Source: Methylohalobius crimeensis 10Ki (lineage in GTDB: Bacteria; Pseudomonadota; Gammaproteobacteria; Methylococcales; Methylothermaceae). From it: a stretch of DNA of 24,000 bases. The notes under the pieces are model-generated. The model searched no databases, was not told the origin of the DNA, and worked only from the letters and a program-made list of their open reading frames with translations. The translations under genes were made by a program, and so were the position numbers. The stretch covers positions 276,690 through 300,689 of the forward strand of contig NZ_ATXB01000002.1 in the NCBI RefSeq assembly GCF_000421465.1, given 5' to 3'. The stretch's first letter is position 1. Every line of letters starts with the position of its first letter. Below are positions 1 through 24,000 of the stretch, piece after piece.

Positions 1-176
1 CCGAGTTAGGCGCCAGCGGGCTGGTGACCGAGGTCGAAAGCATGGGCCGTTTCCTCGCGCTGGCCCGGGCCTTTCCGGCGCTGCGGTTGACACCCGCGCC
101 GGCCGATACGATCGCGGAGGCCTACGGCATCCGGCATTATCCGGTGTTGATTTCCGGAAGGTTTGTCGAGCAATGA
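1..176 (+). CDS. 3' end of a gene cut by the window edge; ICE-associated protein in the position usually held by the PFL_4695-family gene upstream of traD
   Basis: The frame is open from nt 3 and ends ...AYGIRHYPVLISGRFVEQ*. Its TGA (174-176) overlaps the traD ATG at 173 (ATGA coupling). The family assignment rests only on remembered synteny. Confidence 0.4.
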   Translation, partial: ELGASGLVTEVESMGRFLALARAFPALRLTPAPADTIAEAYGIRHYPVLISGRFVEQ

Positions 177-2224
177 GCGACCGGCCCATCGAAGCGCTGT
201 TGCGGCCGCCCGTCGAATTCTGGTCGGCGGTGACGGCGGCCTGCTGTGCCATGGCCGCCGTGCTGTCGCCCCCGCTCCTGCTCATGACGCCACCCATCGC
301 TTATGGTACCGCCGCGGGGCTGGCCTGGCTCGCGGTTTGGCGATTCCGCCAGGGCATGCAAGTGATCCGCTATCAAAAGGCATTGGTGCGCCTGCCCCGC
401 TATCGCCTGGCCGCGGACAAGATTCCCACCGGACGCCACCATCTTTTTCTGGGCCGCGGGTTCCGCTGGACCCAGAAGCACACCCAACGGCTCAGGAACA
501 CCCAGACCGATGAGGGACGGCGGTATGTCGAGCCAAGTGCGCTACATGAACAAGTGCGGGCATGGGAAATCGAATGGGAGAACCATGCTTTGCTGTGCCC
601 CCTGGCACGGCTGACGGCGGCCGACGTGCCTCTCAATCCGCTACGCCCGCTGCCGCCCGTCGGCGGCAAGCCGGAGCTGCACGGCGTCGGGGCGTTGGAG
701 GAAAGGGATATGTGGATGGATCTGCGCGACCGCGAGGGCAACATGCTGGTGCTGGGGGCCACCGGCGTGGGCAAAACCCGGCTCGCCGAAATTTTGATCA
801 CCCAGGACATTCGCCGCGGCGATACGGTCATCGTGTTCGATCCCAAGGGCGACGCGGACCTCATGCGGCGCATCGTCGCCGAGGCGAAACGGTCCGGCCG
901 CGAGGATCAGTTATATTTGTTCCACCTGGGCTATCCGGAAATCTCCGCCCGCTACAATCCCATCGGGGAATACGATCGGGTCACCGAGGTGGCCACGCGG
1001 ATCGCCAACCAGTTGCCCGGCGAGGGCAATTCGGCGGCGTTCCGCGAATTCGGGTGGCTGTTCGTCAACAACGTGGCCCGAGCGCTTCAGGCCCTCGGCA
1101 GGCGCCCGGACTATCCCACGGTATTCAAGTACATCGTCGACATCGAGCCGCTGTTTCAGGAGTACTGCGCGCATTGGCTGGACGATCGCCGTCCCGGCTG
1201 GGAGGCGGAAATCCGGGAACTGGAGGACACGCTCAACGAGCGCACCCTGCCGCCGAACATGCGCGGCCGCGGGCGCCGAACCGCCGCCTTGGTCCAATAC
1301 CTGAAGGAGCGGCGGCTGCTCGATCCCGTCTTGGCCGGATTGACGGCCGCCGTCGAGCACGACAAGACCCATTACGACAAATTGGTGGTGTCGCTGCGCC
1401 CACTGCTGGAAAAGCTCATCACCGGCAAGACCGCCGATCTGCTCGCCCCGGACTACGACGACCTCGACGATGACCGCCCCATCTTCGATTGGATGCAGGT
1501 GATCCGGCGGAAAGGCATTGTCTACGTGGGACTGGACGCCATGGCCGACATGGCGGTGGCGCAGGCGGTCGGCAATTCCATGTTCTCCGACCTGACCTCG
1601 CTCGCCGCCCGGATCTATAAGCACGGGGTGGATCAGGGCTTGCCGGGCGCTCGCCGCCGGAAGGCGAACGTTTCCCTGCACGCCGACGAATTCAACGAGA
1701 TCATCGGCCCCGAATTCATTCCGCTCGTCAACAAAGCCCGGGGAGCGGGGTTCCAGGTGACCGCCTACACCCAGACCTGGTCCGACATCGAGGCGCGGAT
1801 GGGGACGGCCGCCCGGGCCGGTCAGGTGGAGGGCAACTTCAATTCGCTCGTCATGCTGCGCCCCCGGCAATTGACCACCGCGGAATTGTTGACCAGCCGC
1901 CTGGAAACGGTGGACGTGAAGACCAAGATGCTGGTCTCGGGCGTGCACGATTCGTCCGATCCGGTCTCCGACGTTCATTTCACCTCCAATAACCAGGACC
2001 GCATCTCCAACGAGAAGGTACCGTTGGTTCATCCCGCCGACGTGATGGCCCTGCCCCGGGGACAGGCCTTCGCCCTCATGGAGGGCGGACGGCTTTGGAA
2101 GCTCCGCCTGCCGCTGCCCGGTGCGGCCGACGATCCGGCCATGCCGCGTGACCTGGACGAGGTGCTGACGTCCATGCGCACCCGCTACGCCACCGGCGAT
2201 TTGTGGTGGCGGGGAGCGGAATGA
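173..2224 (+). CDS. traD: Conjugative coupling protein TraD (type IV coupling ATPase, PFGI-1/ICEclc class)
   Basis: 683-aa ORF with N-terminal hydrophobic segments, Walker A GATGVGKT and a Walker-B-like VSLHADEFNE. The overall architecture matches TraD/VirD4-type coupling proteins of ICEs. Confidence 0.9.
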   Translation: MSDRPIEALLRPPVEFWSAVTAACCAMAAVLSPPLLLMTPPIAYGTAAGLAWLAVWRFRQGMQVIRYQKALVRLPRYRLAADKIPTGRHHLFLGRGFRWTQKHTQRLRNTQTDEGRRYVEPSALHEQVRAWEIEWENHALLCPLARLTAADVPLNPLRPLPPVGGKPELHGVGALEERDMWMDLRDREGNMLVLGATGVGKTRLAEILITQDIRRGDTVIVFDPKGDADLMRRIVAEAKRSGREDQLYLFHLGYPEISARYNPIGEYDRVTEVATRIANQLPGEGNSAAFREFGWLFVNNVARALQALGRRPDYPTVFKYIVDIEPLFQEYCAHWLDDRRPGWEAEIRELEDTLNERTLPPNMRGRGRRTAALVQYLKERRLLDPVLAGLTAAVEHDKTHYDKLVVSLRPLLEKLITGKTADLLAPDYDDLDDDRPIFDWMQVIRRKGIVYVGLDAMADMAVAQAVGNSMFSDLTSLAARIYKHGVDQGLPGARRRKANVSLHADEFNEIIGPEFIPLVNKARGAGFQVTAYTQTWSDIEARMGTAARAGQVEGNFNSLVMLRPRQLTTAELLTSRLETVDVKTKMLVSGVHDSSDPVSDVHFTSNNQDRISNEKVPLVHPADVMALPRGQAFALMEGGRLWKLRLPLPGAADDPAMPRDLDEVLTSMRTRYATGDLWWRGAE

Positions 2225-2949
2225 TGGCGCAGGTCCGCGAACGCTCCGACCATCCGCAGCCGGCGCAACGGGGGATCGTCCTGAGATCCCTTGGGGGGAT
2301 TTTCCGGCTGGCCGGCTGGCTGCTGCTGGCCCTGGTGTTCTCGATCCTCACCGAGTGGGTCGGGTTGACGTTCTTCTGGCAGGATCAGGGCGTCGCACAC
2401 TGCCACCGGATGCTCGAGCACGAAGTGAGTTATCTCCAGAGCGGATACCGGCCGCACCCATTGGTGCACGATCCCGCCCGGTTCGCCGCCGGCTGGGCGG
2501 AATCCGCAAGGCGCTTGTTCGACAAGACCGGTCTGCCGGATTGGGCGGATCGAGTCGCCGATTCGGGAGGTGGCAGACTGGGTGCTTGGACCGGACGGCT
2601 CTACCGCCTCGTCGAGCCTTATCTATGGTCGGCCTGGTACATTGTGCAGGTGTTCGCGGTCCGCCTGGCGGTGCTCACCCTCGCCCTCCCCGCGTTCGCC
2701 CTGGCCGGGATGGCGGCGGTTTCCGACGGTTTGGTCCAGAGGGATCTGAGAAAATACGGGGGCGGACGGGAATCGGCCTTCGTCTATCATCACGCCAAAC
2801 GCCTGATCGGCCCCTCGTTGATCCTGCCCTGGATTGTCTATTTGGCTTTGCCGGTGTCGGTCCATCCAAACTTCGTGGTATTGCCGTTCGCGGCCCTGTT
2901 CGGGATTTCCGTGGCGGTGGCCGCGTCGATGTTCAAGAAGTATTTGTGA
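2221..2949 (+). CDS. ICE inner-membrane protein, PFL_4697-like (TIGR03747-type)
   Basis: The ATG at 2221 overlaps the traD stop (ATGATG/TGA), with GGGGAG upstream. The 242-aa product has several hydrophobic helices (LAGWLLLALVFSILTEWVGLTFFW...). The position directly after traD is typical of this family. Confidence 0.75.
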   Translation: MMAQVRERSDHPQPAQRGIVLRSLGGIFRLAGWLLLALVFSILTEWVGLTFFWQDQGVAHCHRMLEHEVSYLQSGYRPHPLVHDPARFAAGWAESARRLFDKTGLPDWADRVADSGGGRLGAWTGRLYRLVEPYLWSAWYIVQVFAVRLAVLTLALPAFALAGMAAVSDGLVQRDLRKYGGGRESAFVYHHAKRLIGPSLILPWIVYLALPVSVHPNFVVLPFAALFGISVAVAASMFKKYL

Positions 2950-6980: not shown

Positions 6981-7340
6981 TTAATCGGACGAAGCCCGAT
7001 ACGCCATTTTCGGGGAACGGCCGATCCTCGAAACGCTTTTCCCGCCGTCGGGGCGGGTCCAAGACCCCCGAAGGTGCGGTTCCCAATCGGGCCATTCCCC
7101 CAGGGCCGCCGCGCAGGCTCGGGCGGTGCGCCAATAATGATAACGGGTGCCGGGGGCCAGATCCGCCAAACCATGCTCGAGCGCCCATCGCAAATGCTTG
7201 GCCCGCCATTGCCGGGGGTGCGTTACGCCGTAACGCGACTCGATGAGGGTTCTCAATTGCTCGCCCCGGCGGATATGCCGCTCGACCCCGCCCCGGCTTC
7301 CCGGCTGGGCGCGTTCCAGTAGTCTCCTTATATGACTCAT
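6981..7340 (-). CDS. Hypothetical protein, translationally coupled to the recombinase gene
   Basis: 119-aa ORF. Its ATG at 7340 overlaps the recombinase stop (ATGA). No family was recognised. Confidence 0.55.
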   Translation of the reverse strand: MSHIRRLLERAQPGSRGGVERHIRRGEQLRTLIESRYGVTHPRQWRAKHLRWALEHGLADLAPGTRYHYWRTARACAAALGEWPDWEPHLRGSWTRPDGGKSVSRIGRSPKMAYRASSD

Positions 7341-10040: not shown

Positions 10041-10059
10041 AGTGCAGACAGGAGTATTT

Positions 10060-11040
10060 ATGTTCGTTTTCGGTCTGGATATCGGTTATTCGAATCTGAA
10101 GCTGTGCTTCGGAGAGACAGGAGAAACCCCCAAAACCGCCATACATCCCGCAGGAGCGGCACCCGCCGAACGGCTCCCCGGCAATATCAGACCGGGTTCC
10201 GGAAACGAAGGGTTCAGGGTCCAGGTCAACGGCAAATCATGGGCAGCGGGCATACATCCCAGCCGTTTCGAGATATGGGAACGGTCGTTGCATCCGGACT
10301 ACAGCCATACCGATTCCTACAAGGCGCTGTTTTACACGGCCCTGATCATGGGGGAACGGGACGAAATCGATCTGCTCGTCACTGGATTGCCGGTCACTCA
10401 GTTCGACGAAAAACGCGAATCACTGACCGGGGAAATGCAAGGAGAACACACCGTTGCCGGAAAACGCACGGTCAAAATCAAACGCGTGGAGATCGTCCCC
10501 CAACCCGTCGGCGGTTTCATGGACGCCTTGGCAAACGCCGACGCGGACACCACCGAAATGCTGGCCGAAGGCCGTGTCCTGGTGGTCGATCCCGGTCACT
10601 TCTCATTCGATTGGGTGCTGATCAACGGATCGGCTCTCCAAAAACAATCCAGTGGTTCCAGCACCGAGGCTATGTCCGCGGTCTTGGAGACAGCCGCGGC
10701 CGAAATCAGCGACGACTATGGCGGGCGGATCGAGCCAGACCGAATTGAACAGGCGTTGCAGCAAGGAAAGAATCACGTACTCCTGTTCGGGAAAAAAGTG
10801 GACTTTGCCCCCTATCTGGACCAGGCATCCCGGGAGGTATCCCTGGTCGCCATCGAAAAACTCAGAACGGCCATGCGCAAGGAAGTCGAATCCATCGACG
10901 CGGTGATCGTCCCCGGCGGTGGCGCCAAATGGTGGGTGCCGATCACCAAGGAGCTTTTCCCCGAATCCCGTGTGATATCACCGGACGAACCGATATTGGC
11001 CAACGCCAGGGGATTCTTCGAATTGGGAGCCTCCGGCTGA
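10060..11040 (+). CDS. parM: ParM/StbA-family actin-like segregation ATPase
   Basis: 326 aa with actin-fold motifs in order: FGLDIGYSNLKL, LVTGLPV, VEIVPQPVGG, VLVVDPGHFSFDW, VIVPGGGAKWW, ILANARGFF. GGAG lies 5 nt before the ATG at 10060. Confidence 0.85.
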   Translation: MFVFGLDIGYSNLKLCFGETGETPKTAIHPAGAAPAERLPGNIRPGSGNEGFRVQVNGKSWAAGIHPSRFEIWERSLHPDYSHTDSYKALFYTALIMGERDEIDLLVTGLPVTQFDEKRESLTGEMQGEHTVAGKRTVKIKRVEIVPQPVGGFMDALANADADTTEMLAEGRVLVVDPGHFSFDWVLINGSALQKQSSGSSTEAMSAVLETAAAEISDDYGGRIEPDRIEQALQQGKNHVLLFGKKVDFAPYLDQASREVSLVAIEKLRTAMRKEVESIDAVIVPGGGAKWWVPITKELFPESRVISPDEPILANARGFFELGASG

Positions 11041-15161: not shown

Positions 15162-16411
15162 ATGCGAACCCTCGCCAACATCGAGGCATTGCTGCCAGAG
15201 CTGGACCACTGCATAGCAGGCGACTTGGAAGACCAGGACCTCGACTTCAAACAGTGGGACCATACCAGCCACGACAAGGCAATCAGAACCGTCGTGCAGA
15301 TGGGCGTCTGCATGGCCAACGGTGGTGGCGGCACGGTGGTGTTTGGCGTGGCGGATCGCATACAAGGGCGGAGCAAAGCCATCCTGGGCGTACCGCCGGA
15401 AATCGATGTCAACCTGCTTAAAAAAGCGGTGTACGACCAGACGGATCCCAAGATCATGCCGGTGTTCGAAGAGCTGGCGGTACCGGATGGCACCGGCCGC
15501 CTCCTGTTGATGCAAATCTATCCCGGCATGCCCCCCCTATACCGACACCGCAGGCCGGGGCACTATCCGCGTCAGCAAAGACTGTATACCCTTAACCGGC
15601 ACCCTCCGACGCAAGATTGGCGTGGAAACCGGCGAAACCGACTACACCGCAGAGGCGGTCGCCCCTGTGGATAACGCCTTGTTGTCCGCCACCGCACTGG
15701 AAGCCCTGAGTAACCAGGCCCGCAAGGAGCGTGCGCCGGTCGACCTTGCTGCGGCTTTCGGATATCGAGCTCCTATCCACCCTGGAGCTGATCAAACAGG
15801 GCAAGCTCACCCGGGCGGCCATCATGTTGGCCGGCACCGAAGCCGCCATTCGGGAATACCTGCCCGGCCACAACTGGACCTTCCTGCAGATGACCTCCGA
15901 TACCGACTACGGCATCCGAGAAGATCGGGTAAGCGCCCTACCGTTGTCCGTTCAGCGCATTGAAGAACTGTTGGTACCCTTCAACCCCATCACCACCTAC
16001 AAACAGGGCATGTTCCACTACGAATACCGCACCTGGCCGGAAATCGCCGTGCGTGAGGCCCTGATGAGCGCTTTCTGTCATGCCGATCTGCGCATCGCCG
16101 GGCCGGTGATGGTCAAGCTGTATGCTGACCGGCTGGAAATCAGCAACAACGGCGGCTTTATCGCTGGTATTACACCCAACAACATCCTGCACCATCAACC
16201 CGCGGCCAGAAACCCCTTGCTGGTCGAGGCGCTTACCCGCCTGCGCCTGGTTAACCGCAGCAATCTGGGCATCAACCGCATGTTTGCTGCCTTGTTGATG
16301 GAAGGCAAAGAGCCGCCCCAGATCCGGGAAATCGGTGAATCGGTGCAGGTCAGCCAGGCAGGCCACGGCGCGGGTTCGCGCGATTACTGGAAGGCTGACA
16401 GTGATCAATAA
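15162..16411 (+). pseudogene. Second AlbA_2/COG2865-type gene, at least two frameshifts
   Basis: The three pieces are collinear with the family. Piece 1 is LDFKQW...GGGTVVFGVAD...LLLMQIYPGMPP. Piece 2 is YTDTAGRGTIRVSKDCIPLTG...ARKERAPVDL. Piece 3 is LRLSDIELLSTLELIKQGKLTRAAIMLAG...REALMSAFCHADL...NRSNLGINRMF. The first shift is at a C7 run (15531-15537). The second is near 15750 and is not in a homopolymer. Confidence 0.75.
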
Positions 16412-17578: not shown

Positions 17579-17751
17579 CGAATCGGCGGGAACTGAAGCA
17601 ACAAAGGACCGGATTGTCCCTTACCCTTGGCGAAGTCCAAAGGATCTCGCGTGTAACGACCGCTCGCCGCACAACATCTCGCATTCTGTCAACTCAGATC
17701 CAATCTGTTAGCCCAAAGCAGTAATGTCCCCTTTTGTTTGCGGGAGGGGCA

Positions 17752-18131
17752 ATGACAAGGGAGACGATTACGATGAGTCAGCAAGAAGTGGATCGGCTAC
17801 AGATCACTCAATCGGTGGTGGGTAAGCATTTGAAGCAGTGGGAGGCGGCTGATCGGTTGGGTGTGAGTGAGTGTTCGTCAGGTCAAACGGTTGGTGCGGC
17901 GCTATCGGGACGAGGGAGTGGCGGGGCTGGTGTCCGGTCACCGGGGTCGGCGTCCCAATAATGCGCTTGCCGAGTCGGTGCGGCGGGAGGTGGTGGGGCT
18001 GGTCCGGGACCCACTATGCCGACTTCGGTCCGACCCTGGCTTGCGAGAAGCTTGAGGGGGACCACGACTACCGGTTATCGGTGGAGACCCTGCGCCAGTG
18101 GATGATTGCTGAAGAGTTGTGGCAGCGCCGT
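17752..18131 (+). pseudogene. N-terminal remnant of an HTH-containing transposase (ISNCY/IS481-like N-terminus), two frameshifts and 3' truncation
   Basis: The remnant is in three frames: MTRETITMSQQEVDRLQITQSVVGKHLKQWEAADRLGVS / VRQVKRLVRRYRDEGVAGLVSGHRGRRPNN...VVGLVRD / HYADFGPTLACEKLEGDHDYRLSVETLRQWMIAEELWQRR. There is a 4-bp tandem duplication (GTGAGTGA, 17863-17870) and an extra C near 18010. Similarity ends where GC content drops, at about 18135. Confidence 0.7.
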
Positions 18132-18265
18132 GCAGCTGCATGTGATGTGGGATGTATAGCTTAAACTCGGGTGGATTTTGTCTTGACTATGGGGTAGATA
18201 TTGAGTCAAATTCCTAAAAAAATGACTTTATCGCCACAGCCTGCTAAACAATGAGGATCACCGGT

Positions 18266-18706
18266 ATGAAGCTAAGGTTCCTTACATATGCACTAGTTTT
18301 CGCAATTTCTAATTCTTGGGCTGCAGCTGTTTATAATTCTCAAACGGAAGAACTGACTCTCTCGACGGTATCTGTTGATGGGAAAAATTTTTTTGATGTT
18401 GTGCTGCACCTGTCGTTCGCAGATGGAACCTGGAATGTAGTCGAAGCGAGCACTTCCACGACCAACGTTAGTTCCATCTGTGCGCCCGAACACATAACTT
18501 TAGAAAAATATAATGATGTTCCGCTAGGGGTCACTTACGAACAAGCCATTGATATTATAGGTTGCAGCGGTGAGTTGATTGCGGAAGGCATTGATCCTGA
18601 AGATGGTAGCGCTTTTCGAAGCTATCACTTTGAATCCGGAGCCAGTAATTTCGATTTGTCGTTTAAAAACGACTCGCTCGTATCGAAAAGGCAAACTATT
18701 CAATAA
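18266..18706 (+). CDS. Secreted small protein with a BLIP-like/DUF3862-like C-terminal domain
   Basis: The signal peptide is MKLRFLTYALVFAISNSWAAA. The C-terminus ITLEKYNDVPLGVTYEQAIDIIGCSGELI...FDLSFKNDSLVSKRQ fits the DUF3862 pattern. GAGGA lies 8 nt before the ATG at 18266. The local composition is low-GC. Confidence 0.7.
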   Translation: MKLRFLTYALVFAISNSWAAAVYNSQTEELTLSTVSVDGKNFFDVVLHLSFADGTWNVVEASTSTTNVSSICAPEHITLEKYNDVPLGVTYEQAIDIIGCSGELIAEGIDPEDGSAFRSYHFESGASNFDLSFKNDSLVSKRQTIQ

Positions 18707-18917: not shown

Positions 18918-19070
18918 CTACCGCTCCAAACAGCAAGTCATCATATAATCATCGTAGTAGTAACCATTTCCCGCATCGCTGATTTCGGCCTTGGCGATGA
19001 TAAAGCCGGCTCGCAGATAGGCGCGGACGGCCTGGCGGTGAAGTGGTTCAATGGATGTGACCAACCCAGT
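18918..19070 (-). pseudogene. Possible C-terminal remnant of a GNAT acetyltransferase
   Basis: The minus-strand frame reads ...IEPLHRQAVRAYLRAGFIIAKAEISDAGNGYYYDDYMM...*, resembling the N-x-x-A-x-x-x-Y-x-x-x-GF end of GNAT proteins. No N-terminal part is present, and the fragment abuts the stop of the TraI_2-like gene. Confidence 0.35.
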
Positions 19071-20155
19071 TAAAGGATAATACGATGAAGGAGAACTTCA
19101 GGATCGATCAATACACCGGCAGACCGTCCTTTCCGACCGCTATCCGCAATTTCAATCCGGTACATGTTGAGACCGTCCGACGTCCGCTGGTGGAGACCAA
19201 GCTTGAGGAAACCTTTTTGCACCTTTTCCCAATCAGGCGCTTCCATCCCGTACGACGCCGCGCACTCTGAAAACTTCCTGAAAATCCCCGGGCTGACCAG
19301 AAGCATCCCTTCGGGAACCATGCGGACGAGCGCATCCGGGGCGTTGCCCTCGAATTCGCCGGATTGAACGCCTTCCGACAACCAAGCCAAAAATCGCCTG
19401 CCCAACTCCTTGTTTGTAATCTTTCCAGATGCAGACACCGCAGATGCCGCCTTTTCAATGGAGCCAGGCGATCGTGAATCGTTCCGATCGTCATTCCCGC
19501 CGGATACCGTGGCGATTCGACCGACATCTTGCCCGGGTTCCGTTTTGGCCGTGACTGTATCGCTAACCGGTTCCGGCGCTGACAGCGGCGGCAGATTCAA
19601 CCGGTGGCAGGCCCTGTCGAGAATTTCCCCCAATACGCCGGCCTCGGATAAATCGCCGCGAACGACGGCGCACCATTGGGCATACGCTTCGCGATCCGAA
19701 GACAGCCAATCGGCGCCCTCCTCACCTAGAATGCGGAAGGCATACTCGTCGGCCGGGGCGGGTTCTCCCGCTTCAATCCAAGCGATTCCGTGTATCACAG
19801 AAGCGCCGAACACCGCATAGGTCCATAGATCACGCCGATGGCCGGCGGTTTCGGGCGGTGCGCCGGGCGGAAGCACGTATCCCAAACGCAGTTTCAGGGC
19901 CGTGGCGGCAACCGTGAGCGTCCGCTCGAGAATATGGCCCGGTTGAATCCTTCGAGCGGCAGAGGAACCTGCCCGACCGTACTCCGCGATCCGCCGCAGC
20001 GGCGGGAGATAATAGCGGTCGAAGTGCTCGGGAGTGGTCCCGACCAACGCCTCGATGCGGTCGATCTGCCGCTGATGGACATGAAGCGGTTCGGCGGACG
20101 AATCGTTGTTGGCACCGACGGGATACTTCACCCTCAATAAACGCAAGCGCTTCAA
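19070..20155 (-). CDS. TraI_2-like protein (MobH-relaxase-related N-domain plus TraI_2_C domain), short, with degenerate HD motifs
   Basis: EHFDRYYLPPLRRIAEYG...ILERTLTVAATALKLRLGYVLPPGAPPE...DLWTYAVFGASVIHGIAW is collinear with the PFGI-1-class relaxase N-domain. The C-terminus FLAWLSEGVQSGEF...MLLVSPGIFRKF...VQKGFLKLGLHQRTSDGLNMYRIEI matches the TraI C-terminal domain. The start is uncertain: TTG at 20155 overlaps the upstream stop, and GTG at 20131 is the alternative. The part of the 468-aa ORF upstream of 20155 is judged spurious. Confidence 0.7.
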   Translation of the reverse strand: MKRLRLLRVKYPVGANNDSSAEPLHVHQRQIDRIEALVGTTPEHFDRYYLPPLRRIAEYGRAGSSAARRIQPGHILERTLTVAATALKLRLGYVLPPGAPPETAGHRRDLWTYAVFGASVIHGIAWIEAGEPAPADEYAFRILGEEGADWLSSDREAYAQWCAVVRGDLSEAGVLGEILDRACHRLNLPPLSAPEPVSDTVTAKTEPGQDVGRIATVSGGNDDRNDSRSPGSIEKAASAVSASGKITNKELGRRFLAWLSEGVQSGEFEGNAPDALVRMVPEGMLLVSPGIFRKFSECAASYGMEAPDWEKVQKGFLKLGLHQRTSDGLNMYRIEIADSGRKGRSAGVLIDPEVLLHRIIL

Positions 20156-20535
20156 TCCAGCACCGTATGGCCACGGTTTTGCATGCAGCGCCGGTACACT
20201 CTTTTGTAGCGTTCCTCGGCACTCAGGCCCTTTCCGATACCACCGCCCATTCCGGCAAGGCCCGCACCCCAGGCCGCTCCCGTTCCCGGTGCGCCCGCCA
20301 GGGCTCCGACCACGGCGCCCGTGGCCGCTCCGAGAGCGCCTCCGACCAAGGCACCCTTGGCGGTTTCCTGGGCCGTCCCGCCAGAAGCTTGGCTTGCCAA
20401 TTGCCGGCATTCGGCCTGATCCTGGTGGATATAGGCGGCTCGCGGATCTCCGTAGGGATCGACGGTAGGCTGCCAATTGCCGTAGCTGGCGCAGCCAGCA
20501 ATGATCAACAGGACTAAAAGCATCAACAAGCGCAT
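20152..20535 (-). CDS. Glycine-zipper lipoprotein
   Basis: MRLLMLLVLLIIAGC is a signal peptide with a lipobox Cys. It is followed by GALVGGALGAATGAVVGALAGAPGTGAAWGAGLAGMGGGIG (glycine zipper). 127 aa from the ATG at 20535. Confidence 0.75.
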   Translation of the reverse strand: MRLLMLLVLLIIAGCASYGNWQPTVDPYGDPRAAYIHQDQAECRQLASQASGGTAQETAKGALVGGALGAATGAVVGALAGAPGTGAAWGAGLAGMGGGIGKGLSAEERYKRVYRRCMQNRGHTVLD

Positions 20536-20582
20536 GGTTTGTCTCTCTTGATACGATTCGTCATAGGAATTTAGACCATTCA

Positions 20583-21269
20583 TCATGACCCGCCGCTTAA
20601 TCGTTCGATCCATTCGCGGATCTTCATCGGCGACACGATGTTGATGAAACGCACGTCCACGCCGTCCGTGCCCGCCGCGGAAAATTCGAGCGTGCCGATA
20701 TTGAAAAGACGGGCGATCAGCCCCTGTTTCAAGCCGATGGAACGGATGTCCTCGAACCGAACCCGGTGCGTTTCCCGGGCGATGATTCCGATGCTTTGCT
20801 CGACGCCTTCCGGTGTGACAGCATATCGGTGAGCAACCCAGGGAAGGTACAACGCCAGCGCGGACAAGGCCGCCACGCCCCAGCCGGCAAGACGGAGGAA
20901 ACCGATCACCAGCGCCGGATCGAGCCAGGCGGGCAGGCCGGGCAGGTGCATCGCCTCCAGAACGGTTCGGACCGCCAGGACCGGCGCCAACCCAAGCAAG
21001 GCGCCGAGCAGCAGGAACGGTAGATAAAACGGCAGCGATACCCGCAAAGCTTGACGTATCATCACCGGATCGAACGATGTGGTTTCCGGGGCGTTCGTCC
21101 CTTCGGGCACGGCCTTACCGGACCCGGCCACGGCGAAACCGCCCTCGACCTTTTGTATGCGCCAAGACTCGCCGGTCCGCTCGGCGAGGACGTCGCGCAG
21201 CCAGGCCGCCCGTTCGAATCGCTCGAACGGTCGTTGCCCGTGATCCAGAATCACATCAATCTCAGACAT
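20583..21269 (-). CDS. Membrane protein with a C-terminal bacterial PH (bPH_2/YdbS-like) domain
   Basis: Two long hydrophobic helices are followed by YAVTPEGVEQSIGIIARETHRVRFEDIRSIGLKQGLIARLFNIGTLEFSAAG...VRFINIVSPMKIREWIE. The ATG at 21269 overlaps the upstream stop (ATGTCTGA). Confidence 0.75.
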   Translation of the reverse strand: MSEIDVILDHGQRPFERFERAAWLRDVLAERTGESWRIQKVEGGFAVAGSGKAVPEGTNAPETTSFDPVMIRQALRVSLPFYLPFLLLGALLGLAPVLAVRTVLEAMHLPGLPAWLDPALVIGFLRLAGWGVAALSALALYLPWVAHRYAVTPEGVEQSIGIIARETHRVRFEDIRSIGLKQGLIARLFNIGTLEFSAAGTDGVDVRFINIVSPMKIREWIERLSGGS

Positions 21270-21822
21270 TTTGAAACGCCTCCCAATCGGGGCCGATCGC
21301 ATTCACGATCCGCCCGACGGACAAACCGGTTACACGGTGCACCGACAAAATCCGCAGGGCGGGGTGCGGTTCGCCGCTGCGCCGCCAGGCATGCCATACC
21401 TGGCGTTCCTCGGCTTCCGACAACGCCGACTCCGGGCGGCCTTTTCTCCCCGGACAGCCGAAATACCGCCGGATGGCCGCGCAGTCGCTGCGCTGCAAAC
21501 CGTAGAGATCGACCATCAATTGCGTCGGAGCGCCTGCCTGAAACAGTTCCAGGACCGCCTCGCGGTCGCGGCAATCCAGGTCGGCGAGCGCCAGGGCCGC
21601 GTCGAGGCTTTCGGATGTGACCTCGATCTTGATCTCTAGCACCTGGGCCAGCGCGAACAGGACCTTTTGGAATTGGTCGGGGCGCAATCGCCGGATCCGC
21701 CGAATCTGGCGGCGATCCAGACCGAGCCCTTGCAGTGCCTCGGGACGTCCGATATCGCTCAAGCGCGACATCGACAGCAGCAAGTTCAGGTTGAGGTCCT
21801 TCCGGATTTGCGCTTCGTTCAT
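21262..21822 (-). CDS. DUF2857-like protein (ICE/pathogenicity-island replication-region protein)
   Basis: 186 aa. ...LELFQAGAPTQLMVDLYGLQRSDCAAIRRYFGCPGRKGRPESALSEAEERQVWHAWRR fits the remembered DUF2857 core pattern. ATGA overlap with the upstream gene. Confidence 0.6.
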   Translation of the reverse strand: MNEAQIRKDLNLNLLLSMSRLSDIGRPEALQGLGLDRRQIRRIRRLRPDQFQKVLFALAQVLEIKIEVTSESLDAALALADLDCRDREAVLELFQAGAPTQLMVDLYGLQRSDCAAIRRYFGCPGRKGRPESALSEAEERQVWHAWRRSGEPHPALRILSVHRVTGLSVGRIVNAIGPDWEAFQNV

Positions 21823-22295
21823 TCAACAAAATCCTCCCGGATCAAACAATCGACGAGCCCGTCCACCAATTCACCTAGAGCGCCCGTCTGGTTTTCGAAC
21901 CAGGCGCACAAGCGCTGCACCTCCTCGTCCTTCGGATAGCGCAAACGGATCGCTTGAATCAATCGTTCGGTTCCGGCGTCGCAACCGACCGGCAGGTTGC
22001 CGGTCGAAAGCTGATCAAGTATATCGAGCAGAATGTCTTCCACGTCCTGATCGACCATGGCATGACTCATCGGCCACCTCCAGCATCCACGAGTGAAATT
22101 CCCGTATCGAGCGGCTTGCCCCCCCACGGCCAGGCTGGTGCCCGACACATCCACCGGCAACCGCCATCCGCAAGCGATCCTGTCCGCGCAGACACGGGCT
22201 TGATCGGGATCGTCGAACCACGCGAGGATCTGGCCGGTGGCTTCGTAAGCCTTGCCGTCGAAGGACCATATCAAGTCAACGATTCGAGCATTCAT
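21819..22295 (-). CDS. Hypothetical protein
   Basis: 158 aa from the ATG at 22295, which overlaps the upstream stop (TGATG). No family was recognised. Confidence 0.6.
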   Translation of the reverse strand: MNARIVDLIWSFDGKAYEATGQILAWFDDPDQARVCADRIACGWRLPVDVSGTSLAVGGQAARYGNFTRGCWRWPMSHAMVDQDVEDILLDILDQLSTGNLPVGCDAGTERLIQAIRLRYPKDEEVQRLCAWFENQTGALGELVDGLVDCLIREDFVE

Positions 22296-22335
22296 CAAAT
22301 TGCCTCCAATTGCCGTTTTTCGAGCCTCGGGCCGT
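22291..22335. repeat. Copy A of a 45-bp gene-junction repeat
   Basis: TTCATCAAATTGCCTCCAATTGCCGTTTTTCGAGCCTCGGGCCGT matches 23936-23980 at 40 of 45 positions. Confidence 0.85.
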
Positions 22336-22915
22336 CGATCGTTTCGACGGTTCCTTCGATAACTTGCCGGGCCTTTCGTTTGTCGCCGTGCAACCTGATC
22401 GAAGGTTCGCTAGCAAATCCACCGATTCGGTTCGCGGATTCGGCAATGCCCGCCAAATGGGGCGGATATTTCGGTCTCGCGCTTCGCATGGCGTAACCGC
22501 GATAACGGGTCTGGAATTCATTGGCGACGAAGGGCCACTCGTGTTCGGTCTTTCTGCCCAAGGCGATCCAGCCCCCCATATCCTCGATTACGCGATGAAT
22601 CAGGATGTCGTCGAACGCCACGCTTTGGTGAGGCCCCACGCAGCGCACGGCCTTGTCCACCTTGCTCCAGGCCAACAAGGCGCTGTCCGCGGTCGACCCG
22701 CCCAGCATCCTGAACGCATCGGCGGGTTTGGGCAGATACTGGCCGGTGTCCGGGTTCACCACATGGCGGCTCAACGCTTCACGGACGGCGCTCAAGTCGA
22801 ACGGGCGCATGGCCTGCCACCACACGCTCAGGGCGAACTCGGAAATCGCCTTGCCGTAGAAATCGTAGACCCCGGTCATCAAAACGCGGAAATCTTGAAA
22901 ATCCTCGGCGGTCAT
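22295..22915 (-). CDS. Hypothetical replication-accessory protein (possible helicase-loader-type; weak call)
   Basis: 206 aa, starting 4 nt after the initiator-like gene with AAGAGGTGA upstream. The N-terminus FRVLMTGVYDFYGKAISEFALSVWWQAMRPFDLSAVREALSRHV resembles phage replication accessory proteins. Confidence 0.55.
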   Translation of the reverse strand: MTAEDFQDFRVLMTGVYDFYGKAISEFALSVWWQAMRPFDLSAVREALSRHVVNPDTGQYLPKPADAFRMLGGSTADSALLAWSKVDKAVRCVGPHQSVAFDDILIHRVIEDMGGWIALGRKTEHEWPFVANEFQTRYRGYAMRSARPKYPPHLAGIAESANRIGGFASEPSIRLHGDKRKARQVIEGTVETIDGPRLEKRQLEAI

Positions 22916-22919
22916 GACG

Positions 22920-23942
22920 TCACCTCTTGTCGGAATCGTCCAATTCGGGCGGCACCCAGTTGAGGGCGATCCTCATGTTCCTGGACAGGGGGGCATCCGG
23001 GGCCCGGTAATTGTCCGATCGCAATTCGGGCGGGATCCAGGCTTCGGCAACCGCCGCGTTATGGGCCTCGAGTTCGGATGGGTTTCGGGAGCCGCTCCCT
23101 CCACTATCCCCCGGCGATGGGGTTTCCCACGCCTGCGCATAGGGCTCGTCGGGACCGAAAAACGTCGAAGCCCGCATGACGTAGCGCGTGCTAACGATCC
23201 CCGTGGTTTGGCAATACCGGGCGTAGCGTATGACACCGTCAAGCAGCGCCTCCGCTGCCACGCCGGCCTTGCGTCTGGCGGCCCATGCCCGGTAGGCGGC
23301 CTTCTTCGGATTGTTTCCCGATCGGCGGGGATAACACCGCCACGCTTCTTCGAACATGGTCGGGTAGGAAGTTTCCGGTAGGGATTTCTTCGGGTGACCG
23401 GAAGGGGGGCTGGCACGTGGGGGGCGATCGCCGTCAGGTGATGGCCCCTTAACATCTTTTCCCCCTGTTGTAGTCTCTGTTGTAGTCTCTGTAATAGTTT
23501 GCTGTCTCACAGCAAACTTGTTTGTGGTATCACGGCAAACTTGTTTGTTGAATTCACCAGACTTGTTTGTTGAATCCAGCAAACTGGAATCTTGCTCTTC
23601 GCATTCTTGTTTGCTGGATTCAACAAACTGGCATATGGCTTGGTTCAGAGCGGTTTCGTCCAATTGAAAGTACAATCTCGCGGGGACGCCTTTTCTCTCG
23701 ACGTGCAATATGCCCCGCTTGGTCAAAGCTTTCCGGGCCGCCTCCTGTTCGTAACGGGTCAGGCCGGTTTCCTCGGTCCAATCATGCATGCTCTTGTAGA
23801 ACCGCCGTCCCTCTACCCGCCGGTGCCAATAGACCATTTGGGAGAGAAAAACCGCGCCCGCGACGGATCCGGCAATGTCGACGAAGACGCGGTGATAGGC
23901 AATCGGCCTATCCAGGGCATCGATGTAGTTGATGCTATTCAT
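22920..23942 (-). CDS. Replication-initiator/organizer-like protein (winged-helix N-domain, low-complexity linker, phage-type C-domain)
   Basis: The N-terminus is IAYHRVFVDIAGSVAGAVFLSQMVYWH...DWTEETGLTRYEQEAARKALTKRGILHVERKGVPARLYFQLD. The C-terminus is FEEAWRCYPRRSGNNPKKAAYRAWAARRKAG...TFFGPDEPYAQAW. The linker is encoded by the iteron region. Confidence 0.65.
   Translation of the reverse strand: MNSINYIDALDRPIAYHRVFVDIAGSVAGAVFLSQMVYWHRRVEGRRFYKSMHDWTEETGLTRYEQEAARKALTKRGILHVERKGVPARLYFQLDETALNQAICQFVESSKQECEEQDSSLLDSTNKSGEFNKQVCRDTTNKFAVRQQTITETTTETTTGGKDVKGPSPDGDRPPRASPPSGHPKKSLPETSYPTMFEEAWRCYPRRSGNNPKKAAYRAWAARRKAGVAAEALLDGVIRYARYCQTTGIVSTRYVMRASTFFGPDEPYAQAWETPSPGDSGGSGSRNPSELEAHNAAVAEAWIPPELRSDNYRAPDAPLSRNMRIALNWVPPELDDSDKR
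23466..23501. repeat. 12-bp tandem repeat (2 perfect copies and 1 degenerate copy) inside the initiator gene
   Basis: TGTTGTAGTCTC occurs twice, followed by TGTAATAGTTTG. It encodes TITETTTETTT on the minus strand. Confidence 0.9.
23513..23631. repeat. Phased iteron-like repeats plus a 20-bp perfect inverted repeat inside the initiator gene; candidate origin
   Basis: ACTTGTTTGT cores lie at 23516, 23539 and 23561, with TCTTGTTTGC at 23606, giving a period of about 22.5 bp. GTTTGTTGAATCCAGCAAAC (23565-23584) is the exact reverse complement of 23609-23628. GC content is locally lower. Confidence 0.7.
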
Positions 23943-23980
23943 TAAACTGCCTCAAATTGCCGTTTTCCGAGCATCGGGCC
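23936..23980. repeat. Copy B of the 45-bp gene-junction repeat
   Basis: TTCATTAAACTGCCTCAAATTGCCGTTTTCCGAGCATCGGGCCGT. On the minus strand it encodes a 10-codon ORF, MLGKRQFEAV*, whose TAA overlaps the initiator ATG (TAATG). Confidence 0.85.
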
Positions 23981-24000
23981 GTTTCTTCACGACTGGAGTT

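What the first reader, a model, noticed from the sequence alone, without database searches (positions are those of the whole stretch)
19070..23942. Seven-gene translationally coupled operon mixing replication, envelope and relaxase-like functions
- **Coupling:** On the minus strand, six of the seven genes are joined by overlaps of 1, 4 or 8 nt or a 4-nt gap, as follows.
  - 340 aa to 206 aa: 4-nt gap.
  - 206 aa to 158 aa: TGATG.
  - 158 aa to DUF2857-like: ATGA.
  - DUF2857-like to bPH: 8-nt overlap.
  - Lipoprotein to TraI_2-like: TTGA.
  - The only real spacer is 47 nt, before the lipoprotein gene.
- **Unusual content:** The operon combines an initiator-like protein with an internal ori candidate, two unknowns, a DUF2857-like protein, a bPH-domain membrane protein, a glycine-zipper lipoprotein and a short relaxase-like protein.
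- **Comparison:** DUF2857 proteins are, from memory, associated with the replication region of SPI-7/PAPI-1-type islands. I do not know of a described version containing envelope proteins and a TraI_2-type protein.
- Such tight coupling implies stoichiometric co-production, which suggests a functional complex.
Basis: inference. Interest (0 to 1): 0.7.

Follow-up and report, generated by a model that had tools for sequence, protein, structure and literature searches.

The report
Mosaic early operon of a conjugative element
The seven tightly packed genes are real, but they are a patchwork of a phage-type replication cassette, a known type of transfer-activator gene with its membrane companion, and a catalytically dead relaxase copy at the edge of a conjugative island, so they are not a new seven-protein machine.

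Summary
The window is an integrative conjugative element (ICE) of Methylohalobius crimeensis, carrying TraD, DUF4400/DtrJ, Integrase_1 and a ParM-like actin.

The array is a mosaic, not one conserved unit.
- **g1-g2:** a lambdoid replication cassette, made of an O/DnaD-like initiator with internal iterons plus DUF6475. The same pair occurs in phage Bcep176. A 46-nt direct repeat brackets it. A sister strain carries a non-orthologous O-like cassette behind a CI/Cro pair in its place.
- **g3C-g7 (19091-22058):** the only block shared with that strain.
- **g4:** DUF2857, the BisC family of ICEclc activators. Its profile matches FlhD.
- **g5:** a bPH_2 protein that recurs at 47-49% identity a few genes downstream of DUF2857 in distant ICEs. 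There the order is ParA, ParB-like, DUF2857, TrfA, AcaB, bPH_2, SSB.
- **g6-g7:** lineage-specific. g7 lacks about 230 central residues and the HHH/HD catalytic motifs of MobH relaxases, folds like the motif-less 3KQ5, and evolves faster than its neighbours.

Tight coupling is normal for such operons. This is a variant of a known ICE border operon, of modest interest.

The parts
22920..23942 (-). g1: phage-type replication initiator, 340 aa. The N-terminal part matches O-like initiators, the middle carries iterons, and the C-terminal part matches DnaD-like and replication-protein families.
   Evidence: PHROG phrog_9773 'replication initiation O-like' E 2.5e-35 (residues 8-177). phrog_3729 and phrog_1701 match residues 188-279. 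No Pfam or NCBIfam hit.
23497..23629 (.). Iteron array inside g1 (candidate origin). Partly palindromic units of about 19-29 nt lie at 22-23 nt spacing, in the low-GC linker of the gene.
   Evidence: the repeat finder families D1 and D2 and inverted repeats I1-I4. The middle segment of g1 has GC 0.49 and GC3 0.41, against GC3 0.70-0.74 in the flanking parts.
22295..22915 (-). g2: DUF6475 protein, 206 aa. It is the usual downstream partner of phage replication initiators. Its function is unknown.
   Evidence: Pfam DUF6475 E 9e-33. phrog_10105 E 1.6e-64. It is 57% identical to Bcep176 gp10, which follows the phage's 'primosomal protein' gp11 with a 4-nt overlap.
23937..23982 (.). Upstream copy of a 46-nt direct repeat that brackets the g1-g2 cassette. 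It looks like a remnant of another DUF6475-type 3' end, with only 14 open codons.
   Evidence: 41 of 46 nt identical to 22290-22335, at 1647 nt spacing. An in-frame TGA at 23989-23987 was read.
22290..22335 (.). Downstream copy of the 46-nt direct repeat, covering the g2 3' end and the g3 start.
21819..22295 (-). g3: 158-aa ORF with no family. Only its C-terminal 83 aa (g3C, from the internal ATG at 22070 with a GGAGGTG Shine-Dalgarno sequence) is shared with the sister strain. The N-terminal 75 codons belong to the swapped cassette.
   Evidence: DNA homology to L002 stops at window 22058. L002 encodes an 83-aa protein 90% identical to residues 76-158. No Pfam, PHROG or PDB hit.
21262..21822 (-). 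g4: DUF2857 protein, 186 aa. It belongs to the BisC family, with an FlhD-like N-terminal half, and is the presumed transcription-activator subunit.
   Evidence: Pfam DUF2857 E 6e-21. A profile of 25 homologues hits FlhD chains 8j56 (E 1.2e-6) and 1g8e (E 2.3e-5). The AF2 model has pLDDT 84.7. In the Foldseek search FlhD chains have the highest probabilities (0.72-0.91) but non-significant E-values. BisC is reported as a DUF2857 protein in PMC7423338.
20583..21269 (-). g5: membrane protein with two predicted TM helices and a C-terminal bPH_2 domain, 228 aa. It is a conserved companion gene in related ICE border operons.
   Evidence: Pfam bPH_2 E 4e-15. Homologues at 47-49% identity lie just after AcaB and three to five genes downstream of DUF2857 in L088 and in L089. 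L090 and L091 carry the same AcaB-bPH_2 pair with the identical bPH_2 protein, but those contigs end before any DUF2857 gene.
20152..20535 (-). g6: small glycine-zipper lipoprotein, 127 aa, with signal peptide and lipobox LIIAGC.
   Evidence: Pfam Gly-zipper_OmpA E 1.8e-6. The lipobox was read from the translation. Found only in Methylohalobius loci. No lipoprotein precedes the short MobH-like genes elsewhere.
19070..20155 (-). g7: motif-less, internally shortened MobH-like protein of 361 aa (358 aa by NCBI). It has a helical N-terminal TraI_2 remnant, a disordered linker and a TraI_2_C domain.
   Evidence: Pfam and NCBIfam matches are partial and, for NCBIfam, below cut-off. In alignments HHH is replaced by ARR, LDH by LER and LLHD by VIHG, and about 230 central residues are absent. 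The AF2 model (pLDDT 75) has 3KQ5 as best PDB match, probability 1.0, E 1.9e-5. Sequence hits to 3kq5 and 2ipq. dN/dS is 0.39-0.52, against 0.14-0.31 for g3C-g6.
173..2949 (+). Context: TraD-type coupling protein followed by a DUF4400/DtrJ-like protein. These conjugation genes identify the island as an ICE.
   Evidence: Pfam TraG-D_C, TrwB_AAD_bind and DUF4400 (E 2e-57). The same genes, in the same relative orientation to the operon, occur in L002, and a DtrJ-like gene does so in L089.
10042..11040 (+). Context: ParM-like actin (ALP_N), a plasmid-type segregation protein. It fits an element that replicates when excised.
   Evidence: Pfam ALP_N E 8e-35 and MreB-like_C

Best explanation
The array is the promoter-distal part of the early (maintenance plus regulation) operon at the border of an integrative conjugative element of Methylohalobius crimeensis. 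It was assembled from three blocks with separate histories.

**Block 1 (g1, g2 and the first 75 codons of g3): a lambdoid-phage replication cassette.**
- g1 is an O/DnaD-like initiator. It would bind the iterons embedded in its own coding sequence and start theta replication of the excised circle.
- g2 (DUF6475) is its usual phage partner, possibly helping to load the helicase.
- The cassette is exchangeable. It sits between 46-nt direct repeats and is replaced by a different O-like cassette in a sister strain.

**Block 2 (g3C, g4, g5): the regulatory core.**
- g4 is a BisC/FlhD-like activator subunit that would switch on transfer genes.
- g3C may be a small partner standing in for the ParB-type BisD.
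- g5 is a membrane bPH_2 protein that travels with DUF2857 in related ICEs. Its role is unknown.

**Block 3 (g6, g7): lineage-specific.**
- g6 is an outer-membrane-type lipoprotein.
- g7 is a MobH relaxase derivative that has lost its metal-binding residues and about 230 central residues. It cannot nick DNA the way characterised MobH enzymes do. It is either an accessory or regulatory factor or a decaying relic.

**Expression.** By analogy with the sister strain, which has a CI-like S24 repressor and a Cro-like gene just upstream, the operon is probably under an SOS-responsive CI/Cro-type switch, as in SXT. Overlapping stops and starts simply reflect the compact operon style of phage and ICE early regions.

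**Shown:** gene structure, domain content, mosaic boundaries, loss of catalytic motifs, and recurrence of the sub-blocks elsewhere.

**Inferred:** replication function, activator function, regulation, and every protein-protein interaction.
For: **ICE context.**
- TraD, DUF4400, Integrase_1 and ALP_N lie in the window.
- The source species is known from a 100% identical protein.
- Sister locus L002 has the same backbone, and there the operon lies near the island border beside int, xis-like and CI-like genes.

**Block 1.**
- PHROG O-like and DnaD-like hits for g1, and DUF6475/phrog_10105 for g2.
- Iterons inside g1, in a segment with low GC3.
- Bcep176 carries gp11 'primosomal protein' followed by gp10 DUF6475 (57% identical to g2, 4-nt overlap) downstream of a cII-like gene.
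- A 46-nt direct repeat lies exactly at the cassette ends.
- L002 carries Cro-like, a split O-like initiator and phrog_6028 in its place.
- Homology to L002 begins only at window 22058.

**Block 2.**
- DUF2857.
- BisC is a DUF2857 protein and is required, together with BisD, to activate ICEclc promoters (PMC7423338).
- The DUF2857 profile hits FlhD, with weak fold support.
- ICE border clusters of ParA, ParB, DUF2857, DUF1845 and SSB are described in PMC3334931.
- L088 and L089 show ParA, a ParB-like 372-aa protein, DUF2857, TrfA, AcaB, bPH_2 (47-49% identical to g5) and SSB. L089 also has a DtrJ-like gene on the opposite strand, as in the window.
- dN/dS is 0.20-0.31 for g3C, g4 and g5.

**Block 3.**
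- All 19 full-length MobH-like proteins found by the genome scan, plus five full-length reference relaxases, keep E[AS]HHH, a (D/T/S/A)H dipeptide (LDH in most) and LLHDxGKP or a close variant. One further long ORF in that set (L082) does not align over these motifs. g7 has ARR, LER and VIHG instead.
- The 3H and HD motifs are essential for cleavage by TraI of the gonococcal island (PMC6736028).
- g7 folds like the motif-less 3KQ5.
- g7 is the most diverged gene of the shared block, at 79-81% amino-acid identity against 89-96% for the others, with dN/dS 0.39-0.52.
- g7 has a TTG start and no Shine-Dalgarno sequence.

**Coupling is ordinary.** L089 junctions are 8-nt, 4-nt and 8-nt overlaps and a 3-nt gap. 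The Bcep176 early genes overlap by 4 nt.
Against: - Nothing upstream of position 24000 could be read, because the source contig was not retrievable. The promoter and the CI/Cro control are therefore inferred from a sister strain whose upstream cassette is not homologous.
- No ParB-type BisD partner exists in the window. BisC alone did not activate in ICEclc, so activator function for g4 is uncertain.
- g3C has no detectable homology to anything.
- Fold support for FlhD-likeness has non-significant Foldseek E-values. The published assignment for BisC was FlhC, not FlhD.
- g7 still shows dN/dS below 1 and keeps an open 361-codon frame, so it is not simply a dead pseudogene.
- The element carries IS fragments and much cargo, so the whole ICE may be defective.
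- No experiment supports replication from the iterons.
Confidence: 0.65

Rival explanations
1. One reading: the seven products are made in fixed proportions by translational coupling and assemble into one complex. That complex would link replication initiation, the envelope and a relaxase-like DNA-processing protein.
For: Junctions are tight and conserved in the sister strain. g3C-g7 is inherited as one block whose homology edges coincide with gene boundaries. Most starts have good Shine-Dalgarno sequences.
Against: - The seven-gene order is unique to this strain.
- g1-g2-g3N is swapped for a non-orthologous cassette in the sister strain.
- None of 80 MobH-like loci carries g5 or g6 relatives, and only one (L008) has a DUF2857 gene nearby.
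- Distant ICEs place TrfA and AcaB between DUF2857 and bPH_2 and have no MobH-like gene in the 10 kb downstream of bPH_2.
- Equally tight coupling occurs in Bcep176 and L089 among proteins with unrelated roles.
Confidence: 0.05
2. g5, g6 and g7 form a working envelope-associated module. The inner-membrane bPH_2 protein and the lipoprotein would anchor the motif-less MobH-like protein, through its TraI_2_C domain, near the mating pore. There it would act as a non-catalytic relaxosome or coupling-protein adaptor, an exclusion factor, or an inhibitor of competing elements.
For: - g5-g6-g7 are co-inherited with conserved junctions, including the TTGA overlap.
- Motif-less MobH-like proteins are widespread. 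In 55 of the 61 short-form loci a conserved plus-strand neighbour family lies just downstream, and in the one locus scanned against Pfam (L012) it is TraD followed by DUF4400. That is the position a relaxase gene normally holds, so the class is maintained for something.
- The literature already suggests an 'alternative function' for motif-less MOBH3 proteins (PMC6736028).
- dN/dS of g7 is below 1.
- g6 has a weak match to EexN-type entry-exclusion lipoproteins, E 0.034.
Against: - The EexN match covers only the signal-peptide region and is far below cut-off.
- No lipoprotein or bPH_2 gene accompanies the short MobH-like genes elsewhere.
- g7 has the weakest translation signals and the fastest protein evolution in the block.
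- The sister strain may carry a frameshifted g7.
- g7 is about 17 kb from traD and convergent with it.
Confidence: 0.15
3. The region is a decaying remnant. The ICE is defective, and g7 (and perhaps g3) are relics kept open by chance. The 'operon' is then just what is left after deletions removed ParA, ParB, TrfA, AcaB and SSB from a canonical ICE border cluster.
For: - Compared with L088 and L089, the window lacks ParA, ParB-like, TrfA, AcaB and SSB.
- IS and transposase fragments and much cargo lie between the operon and traD.
- g7 has lost its motifs and about 230 residues.
- There is a remnant of a DUF6475 3' end upstream of g1.
- L002 has a split initiator gene and a 1-nt insertion in g7.
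Against: - dN/dS is 0.14-0.31 for g3C-g6, which indicates purifying selection.
- All seven frames are intact, with strong Shine-Dalgarno sequences for g2-g5.
- The block boundaries fall at gene ends.
- The L002 frameshift is one extra C in a short C run and may be an assembly error.
Confidence: 0.15

Closest known systems
ICEclc / PAPI-1 / PAGI-2 / GGI border cluster (ParA, ParB/BisD, DUF2857/BisC, DUF1845/AcaB, DUF3158, SSB, TopB) and its BisDC master activator (PMC3334931, PMC7423338)
   Same: - A DUF2857 gene sits in a co-directional, tightly spaced operon. By synteny with L002, that operon lies near the border of a MobH/TraD-type ICE.
- Distant relatives of the window's g4 and g5 (L088, L089) lie in just such a cluster.
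   Different: - The window has no ParA, ParB-type BisD, DUF1845/AcaB, DUF3158, SSB or topoisomerase.
- DUF2857 is preceded by an 83-aa orphan and followed directly by bPH_2.
- A phage O-type replication cassette stands where ParA and ParB normally are.
Lambdoid phage early-right replication module (lambda O with ori inside the gene, followed by P), as in Burkholderia phage Bcep176 gp11-gp10
   Same: - An O/DnaD-like initiator with iterons inside its own coding region, followed by a coupled second gene.
- g2 is 57% identical to Bcep176 gp10.
- The sister strain has CI-like and Cro-like genes just upstream.
   Different: - g1 is not detectably similar to Bcep176 gp11 by tblastn.
- The second gene is DUF6475, not a known helicase loader.
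- The module sits in a conjugative element with no phage structural genes in view.
SXT/R391 regulatory module (setR CI-like repressor, croS, and an operon ending in setDC, the FlhDC-like activator)
   Same: An ICE whose early operon encodes an FlhD/FlhC-related activator. In the sister strain that operon lies behind a divergent S24-type CI-like repressor and a Cro-like gene. The description of the SXT module itself rests on established knowledge, not on a tool result.
   Different: - No SetC/FlhC-type subunit was identified.
- The activator candidate belongs to DUF2857 rather than to the FlhD or FlhC Pfam families.
- The upstream region of this window was not seen.
Motif-less MobH-like proteins ('MOBH3': Coxiella burnetii 3KQ5, Salmonella STY4665 / 2IPQ; PMC6736028)
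   Same: About 360 aa, with a TraI_2-like helical N-terminal domain lacking the 3H and HD motifs and a TraI_2_C domain. 3KQ5 is the best structural match, and both PDB entries are sequence hits.
   Different: - In a rough NJ tree without bootstrap, g7 groups with catalytic PFGI-1-class relaxases of Methylococcales, not with the large clade of short proteins that come mostly from Betaproteobacteria. It may therefore be an independent, more recent degeneration.
- It keeps the YY dipeptide of its catalytic relatives.
- Unlike most short forms in that clade, it is not next to traD.

Membership tests
BisDC-type ICE activator locus (ICEclc) | Protein with a DUF2857 domain (BisC) | tested here: met
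   Pfam PF11198 E 6e-21, 75 bits against a cut-off of 36.8. 117 homologues at E<=1e-3, the nearest outside the species at only 38-40% identity.
BisDC-type ICE activator locus (ICEclc) | ParB-domain BisD encoded immediately upstream of BisC | tested here: not met
   The upstream gene g3 has no ParB domain or any other family hit. No ParB domain was found in any scanned ORF of the window. Relatives L088 and L089 do have a 372-aa protein with a ParB-like motif in that position; it gave no Pfam hit and was recognised by reading the sequence.
BisDC-type ICE activator locus (ICEclc) | Activates ICE transfer promoters and its own operon (positive feedback) | not testable with these tools
   Needs reporter assays. 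Only the family assignment and the FlhD-like profile match bear on it.
ICE border cluster ParA-ParB-DUF2857-DUF1845-DUF3158-SSB-TopB (PMC3334931) | Co-directional cluster containing most of the eight core genes | tested here: not met
   Only DUF2857 is present. ParA, ParB, DUF1845/AcaB, DUF3158, SSB and topoisomerase were not found in the window.
MobH (MOBH1/2) relaxase | Alternative 3H motif (HHH) and HD motif in a full TraI_2 domain | tested here: not met
   HHH is replaced by ARR, LDH by LER and LLHD by VIHG. Only TraI_2 profile positions 13-115 of 324 are matched, and about 230 residues are absent. NCBIfam MobH scores 67.7 bits against a cut-off of 200, and TIGR03760 scores 72.6 against 161.4.
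MobH (MOBH1/2) relaxase | C-terminal TraI_2_C domain | tested here: met
   PF07515 E 4.9e-24. Hit to 2ipq, E 1.1e-5.
MobH (MOBH1/2) relaxase | Metal-dependent site-specific cleavage of oriT ssDNA | not testable with these tools
   A biochemical assay is needed. Loss of motifs shown to be essential in TraI of the gonococcal island (PMC6736028) predicts no activity.
Motif-less MobH-like class (MOBH3; 3KQ5, 2IPQ) | TraI_2-like plus TraI_2_C architecture without the 3H and HD motifs, about 360-390 aa | tested here: met
   Architecture and motif loss. Foldseek best hit is 3kq5, probability 1.0, E 1.9e-5.
Motif-less MobH-like class (MOBH3; 3KQ5, 2IPQ) | Phylogenetic membership in that clade | tested here: inconclusive
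   An NJ tree on 309 columns places g7 with catalytic gammaproteobacterial relaxases and a few other degenerate forms (L005, L006, L007). It lies apart from the large short-protein clade. There was no bootstrap, and no reference MOBH3 sequences were included.
Lambda O-type initiator with intragenic origin | N-terminal winged-helix O-like domain | tested here: met
   phrog_9773 E 2.5e-35, and also phrog_678 and phrog_270.
Lambda O-type initiator with intragenic origin | Array of iterons inside the initiator gene | tested here: met
   Four to five repeat units at 22-23 nt spacing, 23497-23629, partly palindromic.
Lambda O-type initiator with intragenic origin | Supports replication in vivo | not testable with these tools
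   Needs a replication assay.
Bacterial lipoprotein | Signal peptide ending in a lipobox with Cys | tested here: met
   MRLLMLLVLLIIAGC, read from the translation. Glycine-zipper Pfam hit.

The most novel reading that the evidence does not exclude
The shared block g3C-g7 is a self-contained control unit of a new kind. A ParB-less, minimal FlhD-like activator pair (the 83-aa g3C plus DUF2857) would be co-expressed with a membrane bPH_2 protein, a lipoprotein and a catalytically dead MobH. The dead MobH would dock at the envelope and modulate the true relaxase or the coupling protein, for example as an adaptor, an exclusion factor or an inhibitor. This would link the transfer decision directly to the mating apparatus. 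More broadly, motif-less MobH proteins, here and at the traI position of many elements from mostly betaproteobacterial genomes, would be a functional class of pseudo-relaxases.
Probability: 0.12. Interest if true: 0.6.

Novelty: new variant of a known kind. Interest (0 to 1): 0.3.

Why it matters
- **Modular border operons.** The locus shows how ICE border operons are built from interchangeable parts. A phage replication cassette has been dropped in between short direct repeats, next to a BisC-type regulator that lacks its usual ParB-type partner. This gives a natural test of whether DUF2857 proteins can work without BisD. It also bears on whether ICEs of this family can use lambda-type theta replication when excised.
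- **Motif-less MobH proteins.** The locus adds a datable example of a MobH relaxase losing its catalytic centre. The scan also showed that motif-less MobH proteins occupy the relaxase position in many elements. Their function is an acknowledged open question (PMC6736028).
- **The stronger claim fails.** A new seven-protein machine is not supported.

Tried and rejected
**Searches that led nowhere.**
- The source contig could not be retrieved to read upstream of g1 or of traD. Exact look-ups of g1, P0001 and P0222 found nothing. Only a 1.5-kb Logan contig came back. The genome scan did not return the species.
- blastn of the operon against plasmids gave no match.
- g1 against viral contigs gave no match.
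- The word-indexed search with g4 gave a single hit and the one with g5 gave three.
I anchored the genome scan on g7 instead and the metagenome scan on the three closest DUF2857 proteins.

**Ideas rejected.**
- Defence system: no PADLOC hit for any of the seven proteins.
- Structured RNA or riboswitch control: no Rfam hit in the window.
- Internal promoters or terminators splitting the operon: none above chance, though this is a weak test.
- g3 as a truncated BisD: no similarity to the 372-aa ParB-like protein of L088.
- g6-g7 as a conserved lipoprotein plus short-MobH pair: candidate lipoboxes appeared upstream of only 6 of 43 short MobH-like genes, none convincing or conserved.
- g5 as a fusion created by deleting TrfA and AcaB: its N-terminus is homologous to that of the L089 bPH_2 protein.
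- A second MobH gene in the window: none.

**Evidence I downgraded.** The frameshift in the sister strain's g7 is one extra C in a short C run. It appears in two assemblies that may share reads, so I treat it as weak evidence.

Full report
**Observation**

On the minus strand of 19070-23942 there are seven consecutive ORFs.

- g1 has no Pfam hit but is a PHROG 'replication initiation O-like' protein (E 2.5e-35) with a DnaD-like or replication-protein C-terminal part.
- g2 is DUF6475 (E 9e-33; phrog_10105, E 1.6e-64).
- g3 has no hit.
- g4 is DUF2857 (E 6e-21).
- g5 is bPH_2 (E 4e-15).
- g6 is a glycine-zipper lipoprotein.
- g7 matches only positions 13-115 of the 324-position TraI_2 model, plus TraI_2_C.

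Good Shine-Dalgarno sequences precede g1-g5. The one before g6 is weak, and g7 has a TTG start with none. No promoter-like site was found and no excess of terminator-like sites.

**Context**

A 100% identical protein names the source as Methylohalobius crimeensis. The window is part of an integrative conjugative element. It carries a TraD-type coupling protein and DUF4400/DtrJ at 173-2949, an Integrase_1 gene, a ParM-like actin, toxin-antitoxin pairs, Schlafen/AlbA genes and IS fragments.

A sister-strain MAG locus (L002) has the same backbone. There the operon lies 2-4 kb from the island border, next to an integrase fragment, an excisionase-like gene, a CI-like S24 repressor and a Cro-like gene.

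**The array is a mosaic**

DNA homology between the window and L002 covers only 19091-22058. That runs from about 20 nt inside the g7 stop to the middle of g3.

The break coincides with an internal ATG at 22070 that has a GGAGGTG Shine-Dalgarno sequence. It yields an 83-aa protein (g3C) equal to the 83-aa gene of L002.

Upstream of the break, L002 has a different lambdoid module:
- a Cro-like gene;
- an O-like initiator split over two frames;
- a 254-aa phrog_6028 protein.

In the window, g1-g2 is bracketed by a 46-nt direct repeat (41 of 46 identical, 22290-22335 and 23937-23982). The upstream copy is a 14-codon remnant of a DUF6475-type 3' end. The cassette was therefore acquired or exchanged by recombination at this junction, and the operon continues beyond the window.

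In temperate phage Bcep176, a DUF6475 gene 57% identical to g2 follows the replication-initiator gene ('primosomal protein') with a 4-nt overlap. That pair lies downstream of a cII-like gene, in a run of 4-nt-overlapping early genes.

g1 carries four to five iterons at 22-23 nt spacing in a low-GC3 linker, the lambda O arrangement.

**The regulatory core**

DUF2857 is the domain of BisC. With the ParB-domain protein BisD, BisC forms the master activator of ICEclc transfer competence (PMC7423338). It also belongs to a conserved border cluster of PAGI/clc/GGI-type islands (PMC3334931).

g4 is a divergent member. Its nearest relatives outside the species are 38-40% identical.

A profile of 25 homologues hits FlhD structures (8j56, E 1.2e-6; 1g8e, E 2.3e-5). 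The AF2 model (pLDDT 84.7) gives FlhD chains the highest Foldseek probabilities, but with non-significant E-values. The published comparison was to FlhC. I record the difference without resolving it.

Loci recovered through the closest DUF2857 and bPH_2 relatives (L088, L089/L090/L091) show this order: ParA, a 372-aa ParB-like protein, DUF2857, TrfA, AcaB, bPH_2 (47-49% identical to g5), a small ORF, SSB and a primase. L089 and L090 end in a DtrJ-like gene on the opposite strand, the same layout as the window.

Replication-initiator genes, DUF2857 and a g5-type membrane protein therefore do recur together in this ICE lineage. The genes between and around them differ, however. The window lacks ParA, ParB, TrfA, AcaB and SSB.

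**The relaxase-like gene**

Most homologues of g7 are 550-630-aa MobH relaxases. Alignment shows that g7 lacks about 230 central residues. It also replaces the conserved HHH, LDH and LLHD residues with ARR, LER and VIHG. These are the 3H and HD motifs shown to be essential for cleavage in the prototype TraI (PMC6736028).

A genome-wide scan returned 80 loci.
- Nineteen encode full-length proteins that keep these motifs, apart from one long ORF (L082) that does not align over them.
- Sixty-one encode short forms of about 300-430 aa, and all of these lack the motifs.
- In 55 of the 61 short-form loci a conserved plus-strand neighbour family lies just downstream. In the one locus scanned against Pfam (L012) it is TraD followed by DUF4400.

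The literature already recognises a motif-less 'MOBH3' class with presumed alternative function, including PDB 3KQ5 and 2IPQ. g7 hits both by sequence, and its model (pLDDT 75) has 3KQ5 as its only significant fold match.

A rough NJ tree places g7 with catalytic Methylococcales relaxases rather than with the large short-form clade. This suggests an independent loss.

g7 is the fastest-evolving gene of the shared block. Its dN/dS is 0.39-0.52, against 0.14-0.31 for the others, and its amino-acid identity is 79-81% against 89-96%. The sister strain has a 1-nt insertion in it, but in a short C run, so an assembly error cannot be excluded.

g6 has relatives only in Methylohalobius. No lipoprotein accompanies the short MobH-like genes elsewhere.

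**Interpretation**

The best reading is an ICE early operon assembled from three blocks.
1. An exchangeable lambda-type replication cassette (g1, g2, g3N). Together with the ParM-like actin elsewhere on the island, it would maintain the excised circle.
2. A BisC/FlhD-like activator module (g3C, g4) with its conserved membrane companion (g5).
3. A lineage-specific lipoprotein (g6) plus a catalytically dead MobH derivative (g7) of uncertain status.

Tight coupling is the normal style of such operons. L089 has 8-, 4- and 8-nt overlaps, and Bcep176 has serial 4-nt overlaps. Coupling is therefore not evidence for a seven-protein complex.

What remains open:
- whether g4 can act without a ParB-type partner;
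- what g5 does;
- whether g7 is an adaptor or inhibitor, or a relic;
- what lies upstream of g1.

**Verdict**

The locus is a new variant of a known kind, the ICE border regulatory and maintenance operon. Interest is modest at 0.3. The more interesting by-products are the cassette-like swap of replication modules, a DUF2857 gene without BisD, and the breadth of motif-less MobH proteins.

Noticed in passing
window 22290-22335 and 23937-23982: A 46-nt direct repeat (41 of 46 identical, 1647 nt apart) exactly brackets the g1-g2 replication cassette. The upstream copy is a 14-codon remnant of a DUF6475-type gene end that overlaps the g1 start (TAATG). This implies cassette insertion or exchange, and that the operon continues beyond the window edge.
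   Followed up: partly
window 22070 (internal start of g3), minus strand: A strong GGAGGTG Shine-Dalgarno sequence lies 6 nt before an internal ATG. It gives an 83-aa product that equals the sister strain's whole gene. The 75 upstream codons have coding-like GC3 but no homologues. g3 may therefore be made in two forms, or be an in-frame fusion created by the cassette swap.
   Followed up: partly
loci L009-L085 (mostly Burkholderiales and Rhodocyclales MAGs), e.g. L012 10001-13834: A large clade of short (about 300-430 aa) MobH-like proteins lacks the HHH, HD and Tyr-region motifs. In 55 of the 61 short-form loci a conserved plus-strand neighbour family lies just downstream, which in L012 is TraD followed by DUF4400. 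That is the place a relaxase normally holds, in elements with F-like TraC, TraB and TraK genes. Whether these elements carry another relaxase was not checked.
   Followed up: partly
alignment A2 (DUF2857 family), PDB 8j56 and 1g8e: The DUF2857 profile matches FlhD over its N-terminal ~100 positions (E 1.2e-6). The ICEclc paper likened BisC to FlhC. The C-terminal half of DUF2857 is unassigned.
   Followed up: partly
L002 1856-2182 and L088 7287-7616: In both the sister-strain MAG and an unrelated metagenomic contig, the island border lies next to a DUF446 gene. This suggests a shared integration region for this ICE lineage.
   Followed up: no
L008 7710-11324: A Gammaproteobacteria MAG has a degenerate 399-aa TraI_2/TraI_2_C gene (ETDHH...LLDH...LLRD) followed within 1 kb by DUF2857 and AcaB. 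It was the only one of 80 MobH-like loci with DUF2857 nearby.
   Followed up: partly
L005 3304-6815: A small metagenomic contig carries Integrase_1, a short motif-less MobH-like gene (411 aa), an 83-aa ORF and TrfA in a row. The window also has an Integrase_1 gene (7337-8287), conserved in L002.
   Followed up: no
L002 6360-7416: The sister strain's O-like initiator is split into a 127-aa N-terminal ORF and an overlapping 246-aa ORF in another frame. This could be a frameshift, a sequencing error or a programmed event; which is unknown.
   Followed up: no
window 11612-13522 and 15162-16411: There are two sets of Schlafen/AlbA_2 plus HATPase_c_4 genes. One is intact (636 aa) and one is split into 170-aa and 226-aa ORFs. 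Together with HTH_17, PIN, HicB-like and Gp49/HTH pairs they form a cargo zone rich in toxin-antitoxin-type and possibly defence-related genes, between the operon and traD.
   Followed up: no
window 17734-18164 (+): Several short overlapping ORFs in different frames have HTH-like N-termini, reading like transposase or IS fragments. A low-GC (0.48) secreted-protein gene at 18251-18706 is convergent with g7. The backbone homology to L002 ends at 19091.
   Followed up: no
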